Assembly: GCF_004010195.1 (NCBI RefSeq) | Contig: NC_057711.1 | Coordinates: 27,663,566-27,727,565, forward strand | Direction: 5' to 3' | From: Chiloscyllium plagiosum | Taxonomy: Eukaryota | Length of the DNA: 64,000 bases | Shown here: positions 1 to 50,228 of the stretch, one piece after another | Layout: each line of letters begins with the position of its first letter | How positions within the stretch are numbered: position 1 is the first letter of the stretch | Made by a program: the position numbers and the translations under genes | Notes under the pieces: model-generated | Databases searched by the model: none | Seen by the model: only the letters and a program-made list of their open reading frames with translations | What the model was told of the DNA's origin: nothing

Positions 1-1211
1 GAAAAATTATTTTTCTTATACAAGTATGAGATGGTAGATCATGCCAATTCTCCATTGGATATGCTGCTTGTTCAGCTTTTTAACTTGTCTTTGGAGCTCG
101 ACACCTCCTCCCCCAGTATCTCTTATGCTAACTAATTCCATACTTTGCTTGTGTAAGAATATGCCATCAGATAACTGCCACAGATGTAATGCCTTTAATA
201 AGGTATACTGTATAGAACTTCAGAAACACAAACTGTCATGTCATGTTCTTGGAAATTTTTAAATTTTTTTTCCCTTTTGCATATTCCATTAGAGTTTTAT
301 TATTCACTGTCCCAGTTGATTCTCTAGTGACACCATCTTTGAAAGACCTAGAAAAATGTCATTCTCTTATAAGAGCTAAATAGGGCATTTAAAAAGGTGA
401 ATAAACTGTTATACTGTTGGCATGAACTACTTTCAATCAGTTTGAGTGCTGTAGTACTTTATTCATGGACCAATACAGAAGCAGCAAGTTCAAAGTTATA
501 AATGTTTGACTTTTGTTTTAAAAACAATTGATTTAATTGCTGTAGGAGTAAAAGCCATGCACTTAGATATTTAAGGTGACTGTTTGAAACTATTATCTTT
601 CCTTTGAACTATCTTTTAAACCTAAGGGTACAGTTAGGTTTGGTGAAGAAAGTTGGTGAAGAAAATAAGTGCCACAACTTTAATTGCACTCAAGTACTGT
701 AGTGTGGCACAAGTTCTACCCTTGACCATTTACAGAATTTATTTCAGAACTCATACAAAGGCCAAATACTGTGGATACTGGAAATCTGCACTAAAAATAC
801 TGCAAAACGTATCAGGTCAAGCAGCAACTATGAAGAGAAAAAAGTCATTTTTGACAAAGTCTTGGCAGTTACTTTGGACGAATATGCCTAGTTTTAAGTT
901 TTTTTAAAAAAAATATTATCAATCTTACCATGTGGTGGCACAATTCTGTGTCCACACCACCGCTTTATTCCACGGCTGCCTATTGATCGGTTTGCAGCAT
1001 GCTATAGCCTTTACCTGTCCACTTGACCATCGTATCTAGATTCTTTCTTTTTTTAAAGAATCGTTTTCATCCATTCACCCAACCTTTCCATTTTGTTCGA
1101 CGTTTCAGCTAACCCATAGCTTACTCAATGTGTCTCAGATATCGTGGTCTTTTGTGATAGAGAAAACTTGCACTCCACTTTTGATGGAGTTTAACACATT
1201 TCGTAACAAAA

Positions 1212-2779: not shown

Positions 2780-4730
2780 TTTTTTATTCATTTGTGGGAT
2801 TTTGATTTTGCCGGTTGGGGTCAGCATTTACTGCCCATCCCTGACTAGTGTTAAAAAGGCATTGATGAGCTGCCTCCTGACCTGCTTCAGTTGGTTTATT
2901 GTAGGTGGACCCACAATGCCATTACGGAGGGAGTTCCAGGACTTTTGCCCAGCAAAAGACAACGAAAGGCGAGTTGATTCTAAGTAAGGATGGTTGGGTG
3001 ACTGGGAGAACTTGCTGGTTCCCATGCATCAGCTGCTCTTGCCCTTCTAGGTGGAAGTGGTCATGGTTTTGAAAGGTGTTACCTGAGGAGTCTTGCTGAA
3101 TTTCTGCAGTGCATCTTGTAGATGCTACACATTGCTGTTGCTATACATTGGGGATGGAGAATGTGAATGGCACATCCACATATAACCAAGTTGGCTGGCT
3201 TTTCTTCCATGGTGCCAAGCTTCTTGAGTGTTAGAACATAGAACATAGAAGAATACAGCGCAGTACAGGCCCTTTGGCCCTCGATGTTGCGCCGATCCAA
3301 GCCCACCTAACCTATACTAACCCACTATCCTCCATATACCTATCCAATGCCCGCTTAAATGCCCATAAAGAGGGAGAGTCCACCACTGCTGCTGGCAGGG
3401 CATTCCATGAACTTACGACTCGCTGAGTGAAGAACCTACCCCTAACTTCAGTCCTATATCTACCCCCCCTTAATTTAAAGCTGATCTCCAGCATCTGCAG
3501 ACCTCACTTTCTCCTCGACCAAAACTGCACACAATACTCCAGATGTGGCCGCACCAGAGTCTTATACAACTGCAACATTACCTCAGTACTCCGGAACTCA
3601 ATTCCTCTACCAATAAAAGCCAGTACGCCATATGCCTTCTTCACTGCACTATTTACCTGGGTGGCAACTTTCAGAGATCTGTGTACATGGACACCAAGAT
3701 CCCTCTGCTCATCCACACTACCAAGTATCCGACCATTAGCCCCGTACCCCATCTTTTTGTTATTCTTCCCCAAGTGAATCACCTCGCACTTAGCTACATT
3801 GAATTCCATTTGCCACCTTTCTGCCCAGCTCTGCAGCTTCTCTATATCCTGCTGTAACCTGCTACATCCTTCCTCACTGTCAACAACTCCTCCGACTTTT
3901 GTGTCATCCGCAAACTTGCTCACCCAACCTTCTAGCCCCTCTTCCAGGTCATTTATAAAAATGACAAACAGCAATGGTCCCAAAACAGATCCTTGCGGAA
4001 CACCGCTAGTGACGGCACTCCATGAAGAAACTTTGCCATCAACTACTACCCTCTGTCTTCTTCCATCCAGCCAATTCCTAATCCAAACCTCCAACTCACC
4101 CTCAATGCCATATCTCCGTATTTTCTGCAGTAGCCTACTATGGGGAACCTTATCAAACGCCTTACTAAAATCCATATATACCACATCTACCGCTTTCCCC
4201 TCATCAACCTCTTTCGTCACCTTTTCAAAGAATTCAATAAGGTTTGTGAGGCACGACCTGCCCTTCACAAAACCATGCTGACTATCCTTGATCACATTAT
4301 TCCTATCCAGATGTGCATAAATCCTATCCCTTACAATTCTCTCTAAGACTTTGCCCACAACAGAAGTGAGACTCACCGGCCTATAGTTACTAGGGTTATC
4401 CCTACTCCCCTTTTTGAACAAGGGAGCTGTTGTTAAGAGCTGCATTTCCAAGCAAGTGAGGGGTGTTCCAGCATTCTGACTTTTACTTTGTAGAGCATGG
4501 ACTAGCTTTTGGGAGTCAGAAGGCAACTTACTTTCTGCTGGATTCCTAACCTTCTGTCCTGTTCTTGTAGCCATTGTATTTATTTGGCCAGTCCAGTTCA
4601 GTTTCTGGTCAATGGTAAGCCCCACAATGCTGATAGTGGGGGGAATTCTGCGATAATAACACCATTGAATACTATGGAGTGGTTAGATTCTTTTTTTATT
4701 GGAGATAGACGTTACCTGACACTTGTGTAG
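2780..4730 (-). mobile_element. Older CR1/L2-group LINE 3' part, split by a young CR1 (pieces about 2780-3232 and 4427-4730)
   Basis: Minus strand reads GLTIDQKLNWTGQINTMATRTGQ (post-RT domain); 3' tail gggatgggcagtaaatgctg...atgaataaaaaa; sequence resumes across the 3233-4426 insertion. Confidence 0.7.
3233..4426 (-). mobile_element. Young 5'-truncated CR1 LINE with an uninterrupted RT domain
   Basis: About 300 open codons: NYRPVSLTSVVGK, QHGFVKGRSCLTNL, YMDFSKAFDKVPH, SGVPQGSVLGPLLF, SKFADDTK; (TTCTATG)n-type tail at 3233-3250. Confidence 0.95.
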
Positions 4731-5084: not shown

Positions 5085-6510
5085 ACTTTAAATGTGTGTC
5101 CTTTGATAATTGACCTCTCAGCTATGAGAAACATTTTCTCTGACTATACTGTGCAAGCTGTTCAATACCTTATACACCTCAGTTAAGTCACCCTCCGCTT
5201 TCTCTGTTCTAAGGAAAACAATCTAGCCAATCAGTCTTTCCCTCTTTTTTTGTCACTGTTTGAAATTTACTGCTTTCTTGGCAATCTCCTCTGTACTGTA
5301 AAGCAAGCATGTCCTTCCTATAATGTGGCGATCAGAATTGTATGACAAATTCCAGCTGTGGTCTAGCCAGTGACTTGTATAATTCCAGCTCTATATTCCT
5401 GCTTTTGTACTCAACAATTCATCTGGTGTAAGAAAACATTCCACATGACTTCTTTAACATGTGGAAGTCATGTTAAACTGATCCTGTCACTTTCAGAGAC
5501 ATACAGTCCAAGATCTCTCTCCATCTCTACCCTTTTCAATATCCTTCTGTTTATTGTGTATTCCCTTGCTTTGTTTGCCCATGCCCATTGCATAATCATG
5601 TTCTTCTCTGGGTTGAATTTTATTGGCCATTTTTTTCACCTATTGATTGTACTATTGATATTTTCCTGCAGTTGACATAATGTTAACTTCTTCACACTCA
5701 ATTGCATGGCCAAGTTTTGTCGTCTTCTGCCTGTTTTTCAATTGTATCTCCCAGATTCAAGTCTAAGTCATTGAAATATATCACAAATAGCAAGTGACCG
5801 ATCTGTGAGCCCTGTAGACACCCTTGGAAATTGCTTTCTATTCACACAAACATCTAGAACATAGAACATAGAACAATACAGCACAGAACAGGCCTTTCGG
5901 CCCACGATGTTGTGCCGAACATTTGTCCTAGCTTAAGCAGTTGAAACTTTATTGCTGGAACAGCACAGCAGGTCAGGCAGCATCCAGGGAACAGGAGCAC
6001 AGAACAGGCCCTTCGTCCCACGTTGTTGTGCCGAACATTTGTCCTAGCTTAAGCACCCATCCATGTACCTATCCAATTGCCGCTTTAAAGGTCACCAATG
6101 ATTCTGACTACCACTCCCACAGGCAGCGCATTCCATGCCCCCACCACTCTCTGGGTAAAGAACCCACCCCTGACATCTACCCTATACCTTCCACCCTTCA
6201 CCATAAATTTATGTCCCCTTGTAACACTCTGTTGTACCCGGGGAAAAAGTTTCTGACTGTCTACTCTATCTATTCCTCTGATCATCTTATAAACCTCTAT
6301 CAAGTCACCCCTCCATCCTTTGCCGTTCCAACGAGAAAAGGCCTAGCACACTCAACCTATCCTTGTACGACCTATTCTCCATTCAGGCAACATCCTGGTA
6401 AATCTTCTCTGCACCCTCTCCAAAGCTTCTGTCGACCATTACCCTTTGTTTTCTCTCACTGAGTCAACTTTAGATCCAGCTTGCAATGTGACGCTGTATC
6501 CCATGTGTGT
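5085..6510 (-). mobile_element. Old degenerate CR1 (about 5085-5855 and 6430-6510) hosting a younger CR1 3' end (5856-6430)
   Basis: Inner piece encodes IEVYKMIRGIDRVDSQKLFPR...TRGHKF...FFTQRVVGAWNALP with an (agaacat)n tail; flanks are collinear decayed CR1 ORF2. Confidence 0.8.
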
Positions 6511-26775: not shown

Positions 26776-28207
26776 TTGAGGTTCTGGATGCAGGTTTGCT
26801 CACTGAGCTGGAAGGTTTGTTTTCAGACGTTTTGTCACCATACCAGGTAACATCAGGATGACGCACCGGTGGTATGGCCCGCTTTCTATTTGTGTTTAGG
26901 TTTCTTTAGGTTGGTGATGTCATTTCCTGTGGTGACATAATTTCCTGTTGTTTTTCTCAGTGGATGGTAAATGGGATCTAAATCAATATGTATGTTGACC
27001 GAGGTCCAACTGGAATACCATGCTTCCAGGAATTCTCGTGCATGTCTCTGTTTGGCTTGTCCTAGGATGGATGTGGTGTTCCATTCGAAGTGGTGTCCTT
27101 CCTCATCTGTATGTAAGGATACTGGTGAGAGTGGGTCACGTGTTTTTGTGGTGAGTTAATGTTTAGATTAGGTTAGATTAGATTAATTACAGTGTGGAAA
27201 CCGGTCCTTCAGCCCAACAAGTCCACAACAACCCTCCGAAGAGCGACCCACCCAGACCCATGCCCCTACATTTACCTCTTCACCTAACACTATAGGCAAT
27301 TTAGCATGGCCACAGACACTGGGAGAATGTGCAAACACTACACAGTTGCCTGAGGTGGGAATTGAACCCAGGTCTCTGGCGCTGTGAGGCCGCAGTGCTA
27401 ACCACTGTGCCACCATGTTCATGTATCCTGGTGGCTAGTTTTCTGCCTGTTTGTTCAATATAGTGTTTATTACAGTTTTTGCAAGGTATTTTGTAAATGA
27501 TATTAGTTTTGCTTGTTGACTGTATGAAATCTTTCAGTTCATTAGCTGCTGTTTTAGTGTGTTGGGTTTGTGGGCTACCATGACACCAAGCGGTCTGAGT
27601 AGTCTGGCAGTCATTTCTGAGATGTCTTTGATGTAGGGGAGAGTGGCTAGGGTTTCTGGATGCATTTTGTCTGCTTTGTTTGGGTTTGTTGCTGAGCAAT
27701 CAGCGGACTGTGTTCATTGAGTACCTGTTCTTTTTGAATACACTGTACAGGTAATTTTCCTCTGCTGTTTGTAGTTCCTCTGTGCTGCAGTGTGTGGTGG
27801 CTCATTGAAATAATATTACAGGATACATGAACATCAATTAGCAACAAAAAGACATGACCCTCTCTCACAAATTTCATTACATACAGATGAGGAAGGACAG
27901 CACTTCGGCTGGAACAACACATCCATCCTCGGGCAAGCCAAACAGAAACATGCATGAGAATTCCGAGAAGCATGGCATTCCAACTGGAATTCTGTCAACA
28001 AACACATTGACTTGGATCCCATTTACCACCCCCAACAAAAAGAACAGGAAATGATGTCACCACAGGAAACTATGTCACTAATCCAAGCAAACCTAAACAC
28101 ATAAATAGAAAGCAGGTCATACCACCAGTACTTCATCTGGAGGCTCGCTGATGATGTTAGTATGAAAACGAACCATCCAGCTCGGTGATCAAACCTACAC
28201 CCAGAAC
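26776..28207 (-). mobile_element. Second PLE family (Penelope/Poseidon-like) with an inverted pLTR
   Basis: Minus body encodes KTNIIYKIPCKNCNKHYIEQTGRKLATRIHEH; 27817-28207 is an inverted copy of its 3' part; decayed hammerhead cores near 26826-26856 (-) and 28148 (+). Confidence 0.88.
27164..27414 (-). mobile_element. HE1-type SINE with an internal deletion, nested in the PLE
   Basis: tRNA-like head and (TCTAA)n tail; atgtt on both sides (27159-27163, 27415-27419). Confidence 0.9.
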
Positions 28208-45882: not shown

Positions 45883-46077
45883 GAGTGTGGTGCTGGAAAA
45901 GCACAGCAAGTCAGGCAGCATCCTAGGAGTAGGAGAATCGATGTTTCAGCCACAAGCAATCCCTTCTGCCCAAAACGTTGATTCTCCTGCTCCTTGGATG
46001 CTGCCTGGCCTGCTGTGCTTTTCCACCACTACACACTTGACTCTGATCTCCAGCTTCTGCAGCCCTCACTTTCTCCT
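45883..46077. repeat. Head-to-head palindromic PLE mini-element
   Basis: 45883-45950 is the reverse complement of about 45967-46036; only the right arm has the tail. Confidence 0.85.
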
Positions 46078-46893
46078 GTCATTGCTGTTTCCTTACCTCC
46101 ACTAGAGAGTTTATGTGGGCATTTTCATCTGCCCAAGGCTTGTTGGATGAGGTGCTGCCAATGTGGTACAGTTTGTAGCAACTTGCTTCCATGCATTTAA
46201 CATCTATCTTTCTCCTTTTCATTTGCGTCTTTACAGTGTCTTTTTAAAGTGGTTTTGCTGTCCTTGAGATTGGCTGCCACTCTTAAGTTCCTTTGGAAGC
46301 TGACTATTTGGTAATACTTGGAATTATTTGTATGCACCATCCGAACCGTAGAGCTGATTTTTATGTGGTCATGACTGAGATGCTGAAAGAATTGGTTTCA
46401 GTGAGAATGCTGGAGTTTGTTCATCTGTCTTCCCATTTGACTTTGAGAATCCTGTGAAGACACTGCTGGTGGAAATTCTCCAGTATCTCGAGGTTCCTTT
46501 TGGCAGGTGACCCATGTCTTGTTGCCACAGAGAAAGAAGTGCAGTGGCAAAACAGTTTTGTGGAATGAAACAGTAATTGCTGGAGAAACTCAGCATGTCC
46601 GGCTGCATCTGTGAAGAGATTGAATGTTGTGGACTAAAACCATTGCTTTCTTATCTGTATTCTGAAAGACTCAGTAAAATGTGTTATAATCAGTGGCACA
46701 GATCTAAACTCTGCTTCCTCTCTCTGGTGGCGCAGAACAATATAAATTAGACTACTGTAAACTTGTGTGGAATTTTGTGACCTCTTTTATTTTGCATGTT
46801 AATATAAAGATTTATGATTGTTAACTTTTCGGTTTCCTGAGTTTAATATTTGCTTCTTACCTTGTGAAGGATAAAAGCTCATATATAAAAGTA

Positions 46894-47023
46894 TTCCTGA
46901 AGAAGGGCTTATGCCCGAAACGTCGATTCTCCTGTTCCCTGGATGCTGCCCTGCTGTGCTTTTCCAGTAACACATTTTCAGCTCTGATCTCCAGCATCTG
47001 CAGCCCTCACTTTCTCCTCCTTC
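46894..47023 (+). mobile_element. 130-bp hammerhead-bearing insertion with a 10-bp TSD
   Basis: TATAAAAGTA at 46884-46893 and 47024-47033 flanks the unit. Confidence 0.88.
46897..46924 (+). ncRNA. Minimal type I hammerhead ribozyme motif, intact core
   Basis: CTGAAGA-A-GGGC ttat GCCC-GAAA-CGTC. Confidence 0.8.
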
Positions 47024-47477
47024 TATAAAAGTAGTCCATTCAGCCCACTGTCTATTGAAATGAATAATGGCTGATCTGACAGTGCTCAATTCACGTTCCT
47101 GCCTTATCCACATAATATTTGATTCTCATGCTGATTTCAAAATCTGCCTGTCTCTTGCCTTGAATATCCTAGACAGCTCCATGTGTTGAGGAGTTCCGCA
47201 GATTCATTTCTCTGAGGTTTATAAAAAACTTCTCATCTGTGTCTTAAATGGTGGACCTTTTTATCCTAAAAGTATGTTCTCTGTTCCTAAACTCTCCCAC
47301 ATGGGGAACAAACTTTCCATATATCTATCATACCAAACACAGTTGGCTGAACACTTGGTTTGTGATGCAGAGTGATGACAAAAGGGTAGGTTCAATTCCT
47401 GTCCTGGCTGAGGTTAAATTAAAAGGTCTCCCTTTCTCAACCTTGCCCCTCACCTAAGGTATGGTGACCCACAGATT

Positions 47478-49160: not shown

Positions 49161-49372
49161 TCTTTGCTTTTCTGACTGATGTGCCTTTGTGCCATGAAGT
49201 TCAATTGAACTCTTAAACAATGGTTAAATGTAAATGGAAGTTTGTGATTGTCTAACCTGCTCTGTCTTTTAATCTCCTTTTCCAACATTTTTACCATCCT
49301 ATCAACATGGCATGAAAAACTGATCCTAATGAGATCTACTTCCCTAGTATATTCTTTGAAAATGAGAATTTC

Positions 49373-50228
49373 AGAGGGTGGTGGTGGAGGGTTGTTTTTC
49401 AGACTGGAGGCCTGTGACCAGTAGAGTGCCACAAGGATTGGTGCTGGGTCCTCTACTTTTTGTCATTTCCATAAATGATTTTGATGCGAGCATAAGAGGT
49501 ACAGTTAGTAAGTGTGCAGATGACACCAAAATTGGAGGTGTAGTGGACAGCGAAGAGGGTTACCTCAAATTACAACAGGATCTGGACCAGATGGGCCAAT
49601 GGGCTGAGAAGTGGCAGATGGAGTTTAATTCAGATAAATGCGAGGTGCTGCATTTTGGGAAAGCAAATCTTAGCAGGACTTCTACACTTAATGGTAAGGT
49701 CCTAGGGAGTGGTGCTGAACAAAGAGACCTTGGAGTGCAGGTTCATAGCTCCTTGAAAGTGGAGTCACAGGTAGATAGGATAGTGAAGAAGGCGTTTGGT
49801 ATGCTTTCCTTTATTGGTCAAAGTATTGAGTACAGGAGTTGGGAGGTCATGTTGCAGCTGTACAGGACATTGATTAGGCCACTGTTGGAATATTGCGTAC
49901 AATTCTGGTCTCCTTCCTATGAGAAAGATGTAGTGAAACATGAAAGGGTTCAGAAAAGATTTGAGGATGTTGCCAGGGTTGGAGAATTTGAGCTATAGGG
50001 AGGGGCTGAACAGGCTTGGGGCTGTTTTCCCTGGAGCGTCGGAGGCTGAGGAGTGACCTTGTAGAGGTTTACAAAATGATGAGGGGCATGGATAGGGTAA
50101 AGAGACAAATCCTTTTCCCTGGGGCCAGGGAGTCCAGAACTAGAGGGTATCGGTTTAGGGTGAGAGGGGAAAGATGTAAAAGAGACAACTTTTTCATGCA
50201 GAGGACGGTACATGTATAGAATGAGCTA
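49373..50228 (+). mobile_element. CR1 LINE RT C-terminal fragment
   Basis: VPQGLVLGPLLF, SKCADDTK, WQMEFNSDKCEVLHFG, RPLLEYCVQFWSP. Confidence 0.95.

What the first reader, a model, noticed from the sequence alone, without database searches (positions are those of the whole stretch)
46884..47033. Stand-alone 130-bp ribozyme element with a perfect 10-bp target-site duplication
Seen: TATAAAAGTA-[ttc, intact hammerhead core, body, tail]-TATAAAAGTA. There is no ORF, no Pol III box and no poly(A). This is direct evidence that the short unit integrated on its own at an AT-rich target. Its 5' end lies upstream of the predicted cleavage site (46924), so the template was uncleaved RNA or a longer or multimeric transcript. 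Inference: a minimal non-autonomous PLE-mobilised retroelement, possibly retrozyme-like.
Basis: partly seen in the sequence, partly recalled or inferred. Interest (0 to 1): 0.7.

Follow-up and report, generated by a model that had tools for sequence, protein, structure and literature searches.

The report
Capped-leader stub of Penelope retrotransposon
This 130-base insert is a real, separately inserted copy of the hammerhead-bearing end piece of a Penelope-type jumping gene, one of thousands that start at the same base, likely because copying ran off the capped front end of the element's RNA; it is likely a dead-end by-product rather than a ribozyme element that spreads by itself.

Summary
Observation confirmed: exact 10-bp duplication, minimal hammerhead, predicted cut after 46924. 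The insert nearly matches the pLTR of a young Penelope-like element, where it follows an RT + GIY-YIG ORF and precedes the ORF start. Copies end at two 3' sites about 35 nt apart (the known PLE tail). TSD-flanked solos therefore come in two sizes, about 93 and about 128 bp, not one. 51 of 89 young arms start within -5..+6 of one A in an Inr-like motif; 0 of 89 start at the ribozyme cut. A G absent from the template precedes that A in 2689 of 4335 counted genome copies (control position 20 of 100), the mark expected from copying a cap. Head-to-head pairs inside one TSD join a short arm to a long arm in 23 of 25 and 16 of 16 classed cases. Best reading: run-off ('strong-stop') cDNA of the uncut, capped leader, likely dead on arrival. 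The cap and start site are inferred from DNA only. The scan reached this reading before on other DNA of this and other genomes.

The parts
46884..46893 (+). Left copy of the target-site duplication; its last A is also the element's first base (A0)
   Evidence: exact match
46893..47019 (+). Penelope-like pLTR/leader stub from the common 5' boundary A0 to the second 3' end (reference +130, minus a 4-nt deletion)
   Evidence: 2 substitutions plus the deletion against UTR-attached copy L002; 3 plus the deletion against ORF-attached copy L162 over about 97 columns
46893..46928 (+). Minimal type I hammerhead motif (bulged A between 9 and 10.1, palindromic CG instead of helix III); predicted cut after 46924; activity not tested
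   Evidence: sequence; descriptor scan; definition from PMC4209133
46949..46950 (+). Site of a 4-nt deletion private to this copy
   Evidence: 1 of 302 loci
46981..46983 (+). First common 3' end of the family (S1, reference +92-94), inferred RT initiation site 1
   Evidence: 38 of 103 young arms end at +88-98
46984..47019 (+). About 35-nt PLE tail between the two 3' ends; it ends at S2, inferred RT initiation site 2
   Evidence: 49 of 103 young arms end at +124-131; tail defined as the stretch between two RT starts in PMC11167929
47020..47023 (+). Four bases that are not element read-through: untemplated, or part of a longer imperfect TSD
47024..47033 (+). Right copy of the target-site duplication

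Best explanation
The insert is a TSD-flanked copy of the first ~130 bases of a young Penelope-like element's leader, likely made when the element's reverse transcriptase started at its internal site S2 and ran off the likely capped 5' end of the uncut RNA at A0. Shown: identity with the pLTR of an RT + GIY-YIG element, two fixed 3' ends, one sharp 5' boundary, excess G before it, and long+short pairing in inverted inserts. Inferred steps: (1) a pLTR promoter starts Pol II at the A of an Inr-like motif; (2) the endonuclease makes staggered nicks; (3) each nicked end can prime at one of two internal sites; (4) the cDNA runs off at A0 and often gains a C opposite the cap; (5) two cDNAs joined head to head give a hairpin insert, while one cDNA joined to the target by microhomology gives a solo such as this one; longer copies need read-through RNA or a template jump. 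The solo lacks the sequence downstream of S2 and so is predicted not to be copied again from that site.
For: The same sequence lies downstream of an RT (YIDD) + Zn-finger + GIY-YIG ORF (Pfam GIY-YIG E 1.7e-4, just under the cut-off; Atlas clusters with RVT_1/GIY-YIG at 0.97). Read-through past S2 leads to an ATG at +166. In the unbiased 1.61 Mb sample, 87 of 103 young arms end at S1 or S2; 51 of 89 with a clean 5' flank start at -5..+6 and 0 of 89 at the cut. Genome-wide counts before the exact 25-mer, with no G at -2: G 2689, A 924, T 722; the template has C there. At a control start 5 nt inside, G was 20 of the first 100 listed. In the sister subfamily G was 49 of the first 100 listed (p 3e-5 against the control). 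Of the first 20 G-copies fetched, none continued into the upstream UTR; 9 were TSD-flanked solos (4 long, 5 short; two share one target sequence) and 9 were inverted pairs. In 2 solos, and by eye in 6 pair junctions, the G comes from neither target nor template. Target ends are not G-rich (3 of 25 at the TSD core end, 8 of 25 at its widest reading). Pairs: short+long in 23 of 25 classed pairs of 52 and in 16 of 16 classed pairs of 18 in a second set; TSD in 29 of 48 usable pairs against 0-1 in controls. Four runs from three organism labels show loose ends at 46893 and 47017-19. Literature: internal initiation at two sites, both strands primed, uncut RNA as dominant template (PMC11167929); internal pLTR promoter (PMC2377424); untemplated G read as a cap copy (PMC9341517).
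Against: There is no direct RNA evidence for a start at A0: the one raw-read RNA run that covered the stretch showed no pile-up of starts or ends (single-cell polyA library, about 2% read, multi-copy target). This copy has T, not G, at -1. In 7 of 9 solos the G lies inside the TSD as microhomology, so it cannot be assigned in the single case. Many copies do extend upstream: 8590 exact copies carry at least 7 templated upstream bases, so a truncation continuum exists beside the peak. Untemplated C addition at a stop would give the same G without a cap. The match to the fly Penelope DPE is weak (5 of 8). The masters could be internally deleted tandem derivatives rather than full-length elements.
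Confidence: 0.75

Rival explanations
1. RT stalls at the 5' foot of the hammerhead (stem I, or a protein-bound fold) on a longer read-through transcript and adds an untemplated C. The stub is still a PLE fragment, but A0 is a structural stop, not the RNA's start.
For: A0 is exactly the first base of stem I. No RNA start pile-up was seen. 8590 exact copies read through A0.
Against: Stem I is only 3-4 bp and the unit folds no better than shuffles. RT has already passed the stronger stem II. G is not enriched at a stop 5 nt away. A0 sits in an Inr-like motif.
Confidence: 0.13
2. One reading: an independent minimal non-autonomous, retrozyme-like or SINE-like element of fixed length that is transcribed and re-mobilised as a unit.
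For: The lengths do peak. TSD-flanked solos are common (7 others besides this one among young singles in 1.61 Mb). Tandem hammerhead-bearing derivatives exist in the genome. Retrozymes are proposed to derive from pLTRs (bioRxiv 2026.07.22.740005).
Against: There are two size modes, not one. I saw no variant that sets solos apart from ORF- or UTR-attached copies in 4 pairwise alignments. The same ends form arms of inverted pairs. It has a single min-HHR, and a single motif showed no cleavage in PMC4209133. Its ends do not lie at the cut site, as a processed monomer or circle would need. The amplified derivatives keep ORF-side sequence beyond S2, which solos lack.
Confidence: 0.08
3. The solo is the remnant of a larger insert (an inverted pair or pLTR-ORF-pLTR) reduced later by deletion or recombination.
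For: Hairpin inserts are common and may be unstable. Solo pLTRs without TSD were ascribed to recombination or deletion in Adineta (PMC3846280).
Against: The TSD abuts A0 exactly. The same precise boundary recurs in many solos. Recombination between direct pLTRs would tend to keep the upstream copy's 5' end.
Confidence: 0.04

Closest known systems
Endonuclease-positive Penelope-like elements with pLTR, 30-40 bp tail and inverted 5'-truncated copy (PMC8557442 and PMC3846280, passages seen); Neptune clade inferred from the Zn-finger linker
   Same: RT + C-terminal GIY-YIG, pLTR with min-HHR, tail on one end only, head-to-head arrangement, TSD
   Different: Described 5' truncation is variable. Here there is one sharp boundary with excess G, and long+short pairing is nearly obligate. 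PMC3846280 explains head-to-head junctions by self-priming on antisense RNA; the data here fit priming from both target strands.
PAc Poseidon element in vitro (Frangieh et al. 2024, PMC11167929, main text read, supplements not seen)
   Same: Two internal RT start sites define the tail; both DNA strands are primed; uncut RNA is the main template; AT-rich targets
   Different: In PAc the starts lie inside the ORF; here they lie before the ATG at +166. The main text does not describe run-off stubs or a cap signature.
min-HHRs of metazoan PLEs (Cervera and de la Pena 2014, PMC4209133, results and discussion read)
   Same: Bulged base at 9/10.1, G10.1-C11.1, palindromic 15.2-16.2, no helix III; most motifs are single and ascribed to truncated PLEs
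   Different: Stem II is 4 bp rather than the 7-8 bp of the Schistosoma motifs; the boundaries of single motifs were not mapped there.
Non-LTR retrozymes (PMC7229834 passages; bioRxiv 10.64898/2026.07.22.740005, parts 1-3 of 5)
   Same: Non-coding, type I hammerhead, PLE-related, monomers exist
   Different: These are tandem units with a hammerhead in each, processed cut-to-cut into monomers and circles. This insert is single and its ends are not at the cut.
Retroviral minus-strand strong-stop DNA (recalled) and the cap-derived G at L1 5' ends (PMC9341517 passages)
   Same: Internal priming near the 5' end and run-off at a capped end
   Different: Primed by target DNA, not tRNA, and integrated directly.

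Membership tests
EN+ Penelope-like element (5'-truncated insertion) | [quoted passage not shown] | tested here: met
   the Pfam score is 0.3 bit under the cut-off and Pfam RVT_1 did not hit
EN+ Penelope-like element (5'-truncated insertion) | pLTR sequence both follows the ORF and precedes the ORF start | tested here: met
   (from partial and deleted copies; no full-length copy seen)
EN+ Penelope-like element (5'-truncated insertion) | Optional 30-40 bp tail | tested here: met
   two 3' ends at +92-94 and +128-130
EN+ Penelope-like element (5'-truncated insertion) | Inverted and tandem insertion structures with TSD | tested here: met
Neptune clade | Zn-finger-like motif between RT and EN; placement by RT tree | tested here: inconclusive
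   Cys cluster seen in the linker; no tree built
Minimal PLE hammerhead | Conserved core, bulge at 9/10.1, G10.1-C11.1, palindromic 15.2-16.2 | tested here: met
   sequence
Minimal PLE hammerhead | Self-cleavage (as a dimer or protein-assisted) | not testable with these tools
   no assay; copies rarely start at the cut
Non-LTR retrozyme | Tandem repeats with a hammerhead in at least two consecutive units | tested here: not met
   single unit; met by other derivatives in the genome
Non-LTR retrozyme | Unit-length linear and circular RNAs, ends at the cut site | tested here: inconclusive
   DNA ends are not at the cut; RNA data were thin and showed no listed circle joint in the raw-read run
Independent non-autonomous family (SINE-like) | One fixed length, own diagnostic variants, own promoter boxes | tested here: not met
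   two length modes; no Pol III boxes; diagnostic variants checked only in 4 pairwise alignments, no tree

The most novel reading that the evidence does not exclude
PLE integration starts as a double strong-stop reaction. A protein dimer primes both nicked target strands at two sites 35 nt apart on a capped, uncut leader; both cDNAs run off at the cap. The outcome (solo, hairpin, tandem or full element) depends on where the run-off ends jump or anneal. This one rule would explain the one-sided tail, the head-to-head pLTRs and the birth of retrozyme-like tandems, and it would leave the hammerhead with no role in making the template.
Probability: 0.5. Interest if true: 0.68.

Novelty: new variant of a known kind. 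Interest (0 to 1): 0.42.

Why it matters
The single insert is ordinary: one of roughly 600,000 such pieces, extrapolated from 266 arms in 1.61 Mb. The family's boundaries matter more. How PLEs make tails, inverted pLTRs and tandems is called undefined in PMC8557442. A fixed capped start, two priming sites and long+short pairing give sharp predictions for the existing in vitro system. They also warn that short hammerhead units with TSDs in fish-like genomes should not be filed as retrozymes without boundary statistics.

Tried and rejected
Rfam at gathering and E-value thresholds gave no hammerhead; the miRNA hits at 45891-46028 reflect an inverted pair. The PDB sequence search gave nothing useful. 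A 60-nt DNA search for the sister subfamily returned no candidates, which shows nothing. No holder on record as RNA was listed. Raw reads of X21 showed no start or end pile-up and X22 laid nothing: no verdict on the start site. The empty site was not seen: no joint skipping the insert among the 15 joints shown (17 not shown), and one contig of run X15 carries the filled 5' junction. The deletion word did not span the deletion and was redone. Rejected: extra G from C-to-G mutation of read-through copies (0 of 20 had upstream UTR); from realignment on the repeat at the cut site (the sister subfamily lacks it and still shows 49 of 100); from target preference. Rejected: HHR-cleaved RNA as the main template. 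Paper searches for a published run-off or twin-priming model of PLEs found none; the library lacks most subscription papers. Supplements of PMC11167929 were not opened and those of the bioRxiv preprint are closed; either may bear on novelty.

Full report
Observation. The duplication is exact at 46884-46893 and 47024-47033. Between the copies lies a minimal hammerhead of the kind defined for metazoan PLEs, with a predicted cut after 46924. The descriptor found 91 such motifs in 1.61 Mb of unselected DNA and none in three shuffles. The window holds 18 BLAST pieces of this repeat. The element proper runs from 46893 to 47019, carries a private 4-nt deletion, and is followed by 4 bases that are not element sequence. 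Positions below count from the shared A at 46893 as 0.

Identity. Copies that extend upstream run into a 3' UTR and an ORF with an RT palm motif, a Cys-rich linker and GIY-YIG. Forty listed copies of that ORF part are 98-100% identical, so the family is young. Read-through beyond the repeat's far end leads to an ATG at +166. The unit is therefore the pLTR/leader of an endonuclease-positive Penelope-like element. Neptune is inferred from the linker, and no tree was built. That the host is a shark-like fish is recalled, not tested.

Population. In 160 unselected 10-kb stretches plus the window (1.61 Mb without N) there were 266 arms in 214 events, 52 of them head-to-head pairs. Of 103 young arms (at least 90% identity, at least 40 nt), 38 end at +88-98, 49 at +124-131 and 16 elsewhere. 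After dropping 14 with N or an edge upstream, 51 of 89 start at -5..+6, 8 further upstream and none at +31-33. Young solos with an abutting TSD, besides this one, were L124, L206 and L220 (about 93-100 bp), L067, L196 and L060 (about 124-130 bp) and L036 (70 bp); 6 of 7 start at about -7..+5. Among 37 usable young singles only 9 had a TSD of 8 or more; several others extend into longer copies.

Pairs. Of 52 pairs, 25 had both ends at a standard site: 23 joined short to long (p 1e-5), and 27 had an unclassed end. In 30 loci picked only for identity over +35-94, 18 were pairs and 16 of 16 classed ones were short+long. TSDs were found in 29 of 48 usable pairs against 0-1 with swapped flanks; they measure 13-18 bp at the widest reading and mostly 11-13 without overlaps (25 pairs). 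PMC11167929 (main text) shows two internal RT start sites that bound the tail, priming on both strands and a predicted dimer. The pairing fits one site per strand; that step is inference.

The 5' boundary. A0 lies in an Inr-like context (consensus recalled). The fly Penelope has an internal pLTR promoter with Inr and DPE (PMC2377424 passages). The template base before A0 is C. Exact genome counts with no G at -2 were G 2689, A 924 and T 722; 8590 copies carried 7 templated upstream bases. Copies with G at -2, which include many palindromic junctions, were not counted. A control start at +5 had 773 copies with G in 20 of the first 100; the sister subfamily had G in 49 of the first 100. Both tallies were made by eye from the listings. 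In the first 20 G-copies none had upstream UTR. The G was outside the TSD in 2 solos, at pair junctions without template in 6 (by eye), and inside the TSD as microhomology in 7 solos. An untemplated G is read as a cap copy for L1 (PMC9341517 passages). Only 209 copies with an M-R flank start at the ribozyme cut (pattern not identical in stringency). This copy itself has T at -1 and shares its first A with the target.

Results against. RNA reads gave no start pile-up. An uncapped stop with C addition would mimic the signal. Many copies read through A0. The empty site was not found.

Mechanism. Likely: Pol II starts at A0; the protein nicks both strands; RT starts at S2 and copies the uncut hammerhead to the cap; the cDNA end joins the target by one base of microhomology; repair leaves the TSD. 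PAc needs RNA downstream of its start sites. Amplified internally deleted derivatives here keep about 60-150 nt beyond S2, which the solo lacks, so it is predicted to be a dead end, at least from S2. Those tandem derivatives (units of about 320 and 224 bp, identical at 40 listed places in the part searched) are the better retrozyme candidates.

Comparison and novelty. Tail, inverted pLTRs, solo pLTRs and single min-HHRs are all described (PMC8557442, PMC3846280, PMC7229834 passages; PMC4209133 parts 1-2 of 4; bioRxiv 2026.07.22.740005 parts 1-3 of 5). My five searches found no paper on capped run-off stubs or long+short pairing. Earlier notes of this scan, seen only after my boundary and cap tests, give the same reading; they are not counted as support. 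One group reports U6 fusions at the cut site, which I did not test and which would mean the motif sometimes cuts in vivo.

Verdict. A real insertion, a fragment of a known class with a mechanistically telling boundary, and not a separate ribozyme element. Interest 0.42.

Noticed in passing
L233-L262 (e.g. L240, L247, L259), L064:6100-6480, L145: Young internally deleted tandem derivatives of the sister subfamily: units of about 320 and 224 bp with a min-HHR each, keeping 78-124 nt of the ORF side; identical at 40 listed places in the part searched. Retrozyme-like candidates.
   Followed up: partly
window 45886-46077: Older head-to-head pair of the same family; source of the spurious miRNA hits in Rfam.
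   Followed up: partly
L094, L165, L251, L204, L257: Tandem or deletion junctions that land at or next to A0, as expected if a run-off cDNA end jumped to another template.
   Followed up: partly
unbiased loci: A second min-HHR family with a different stem II and GC at 15.2-16.2 (18 of 91 hits), with compensatory pairs in stems I and II relative to this family.
   Followed up: no
L160 and sister copies, about +80-85: The sister subfamily has AATAAA about 10 nt before S1; the finding's subfamily does not.
   Followed up: no
L082:6270-6300: The end of the tail looks like a branch point, pyrimidine tract and AG in this copy; a possible 3' splice site at S2. Most copies lack the AG.
   Followed up: no
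window 27301-27699 (-): Fragment that resembles a GIY-YIG endonuclease of another PLE family by eye; Pfam gave no GIY-YIG hit.
   Followed up: partly
window 5939-5997 (-): Short sister-subfamily piece (+36..94) with a 30-bp repeat on both sides, inside another repeat.
   Followed up: no
window 46552-46620: Another high-copy repeat fragment (deep cover), possibly the tail of a different PLE family on the minus strand.
   Followed up: no
window 3504-4682 (-) and 49366-49998 (+): LINE-type reverse transcriptase fragments (CR1-like by recall).
   Followed up: no
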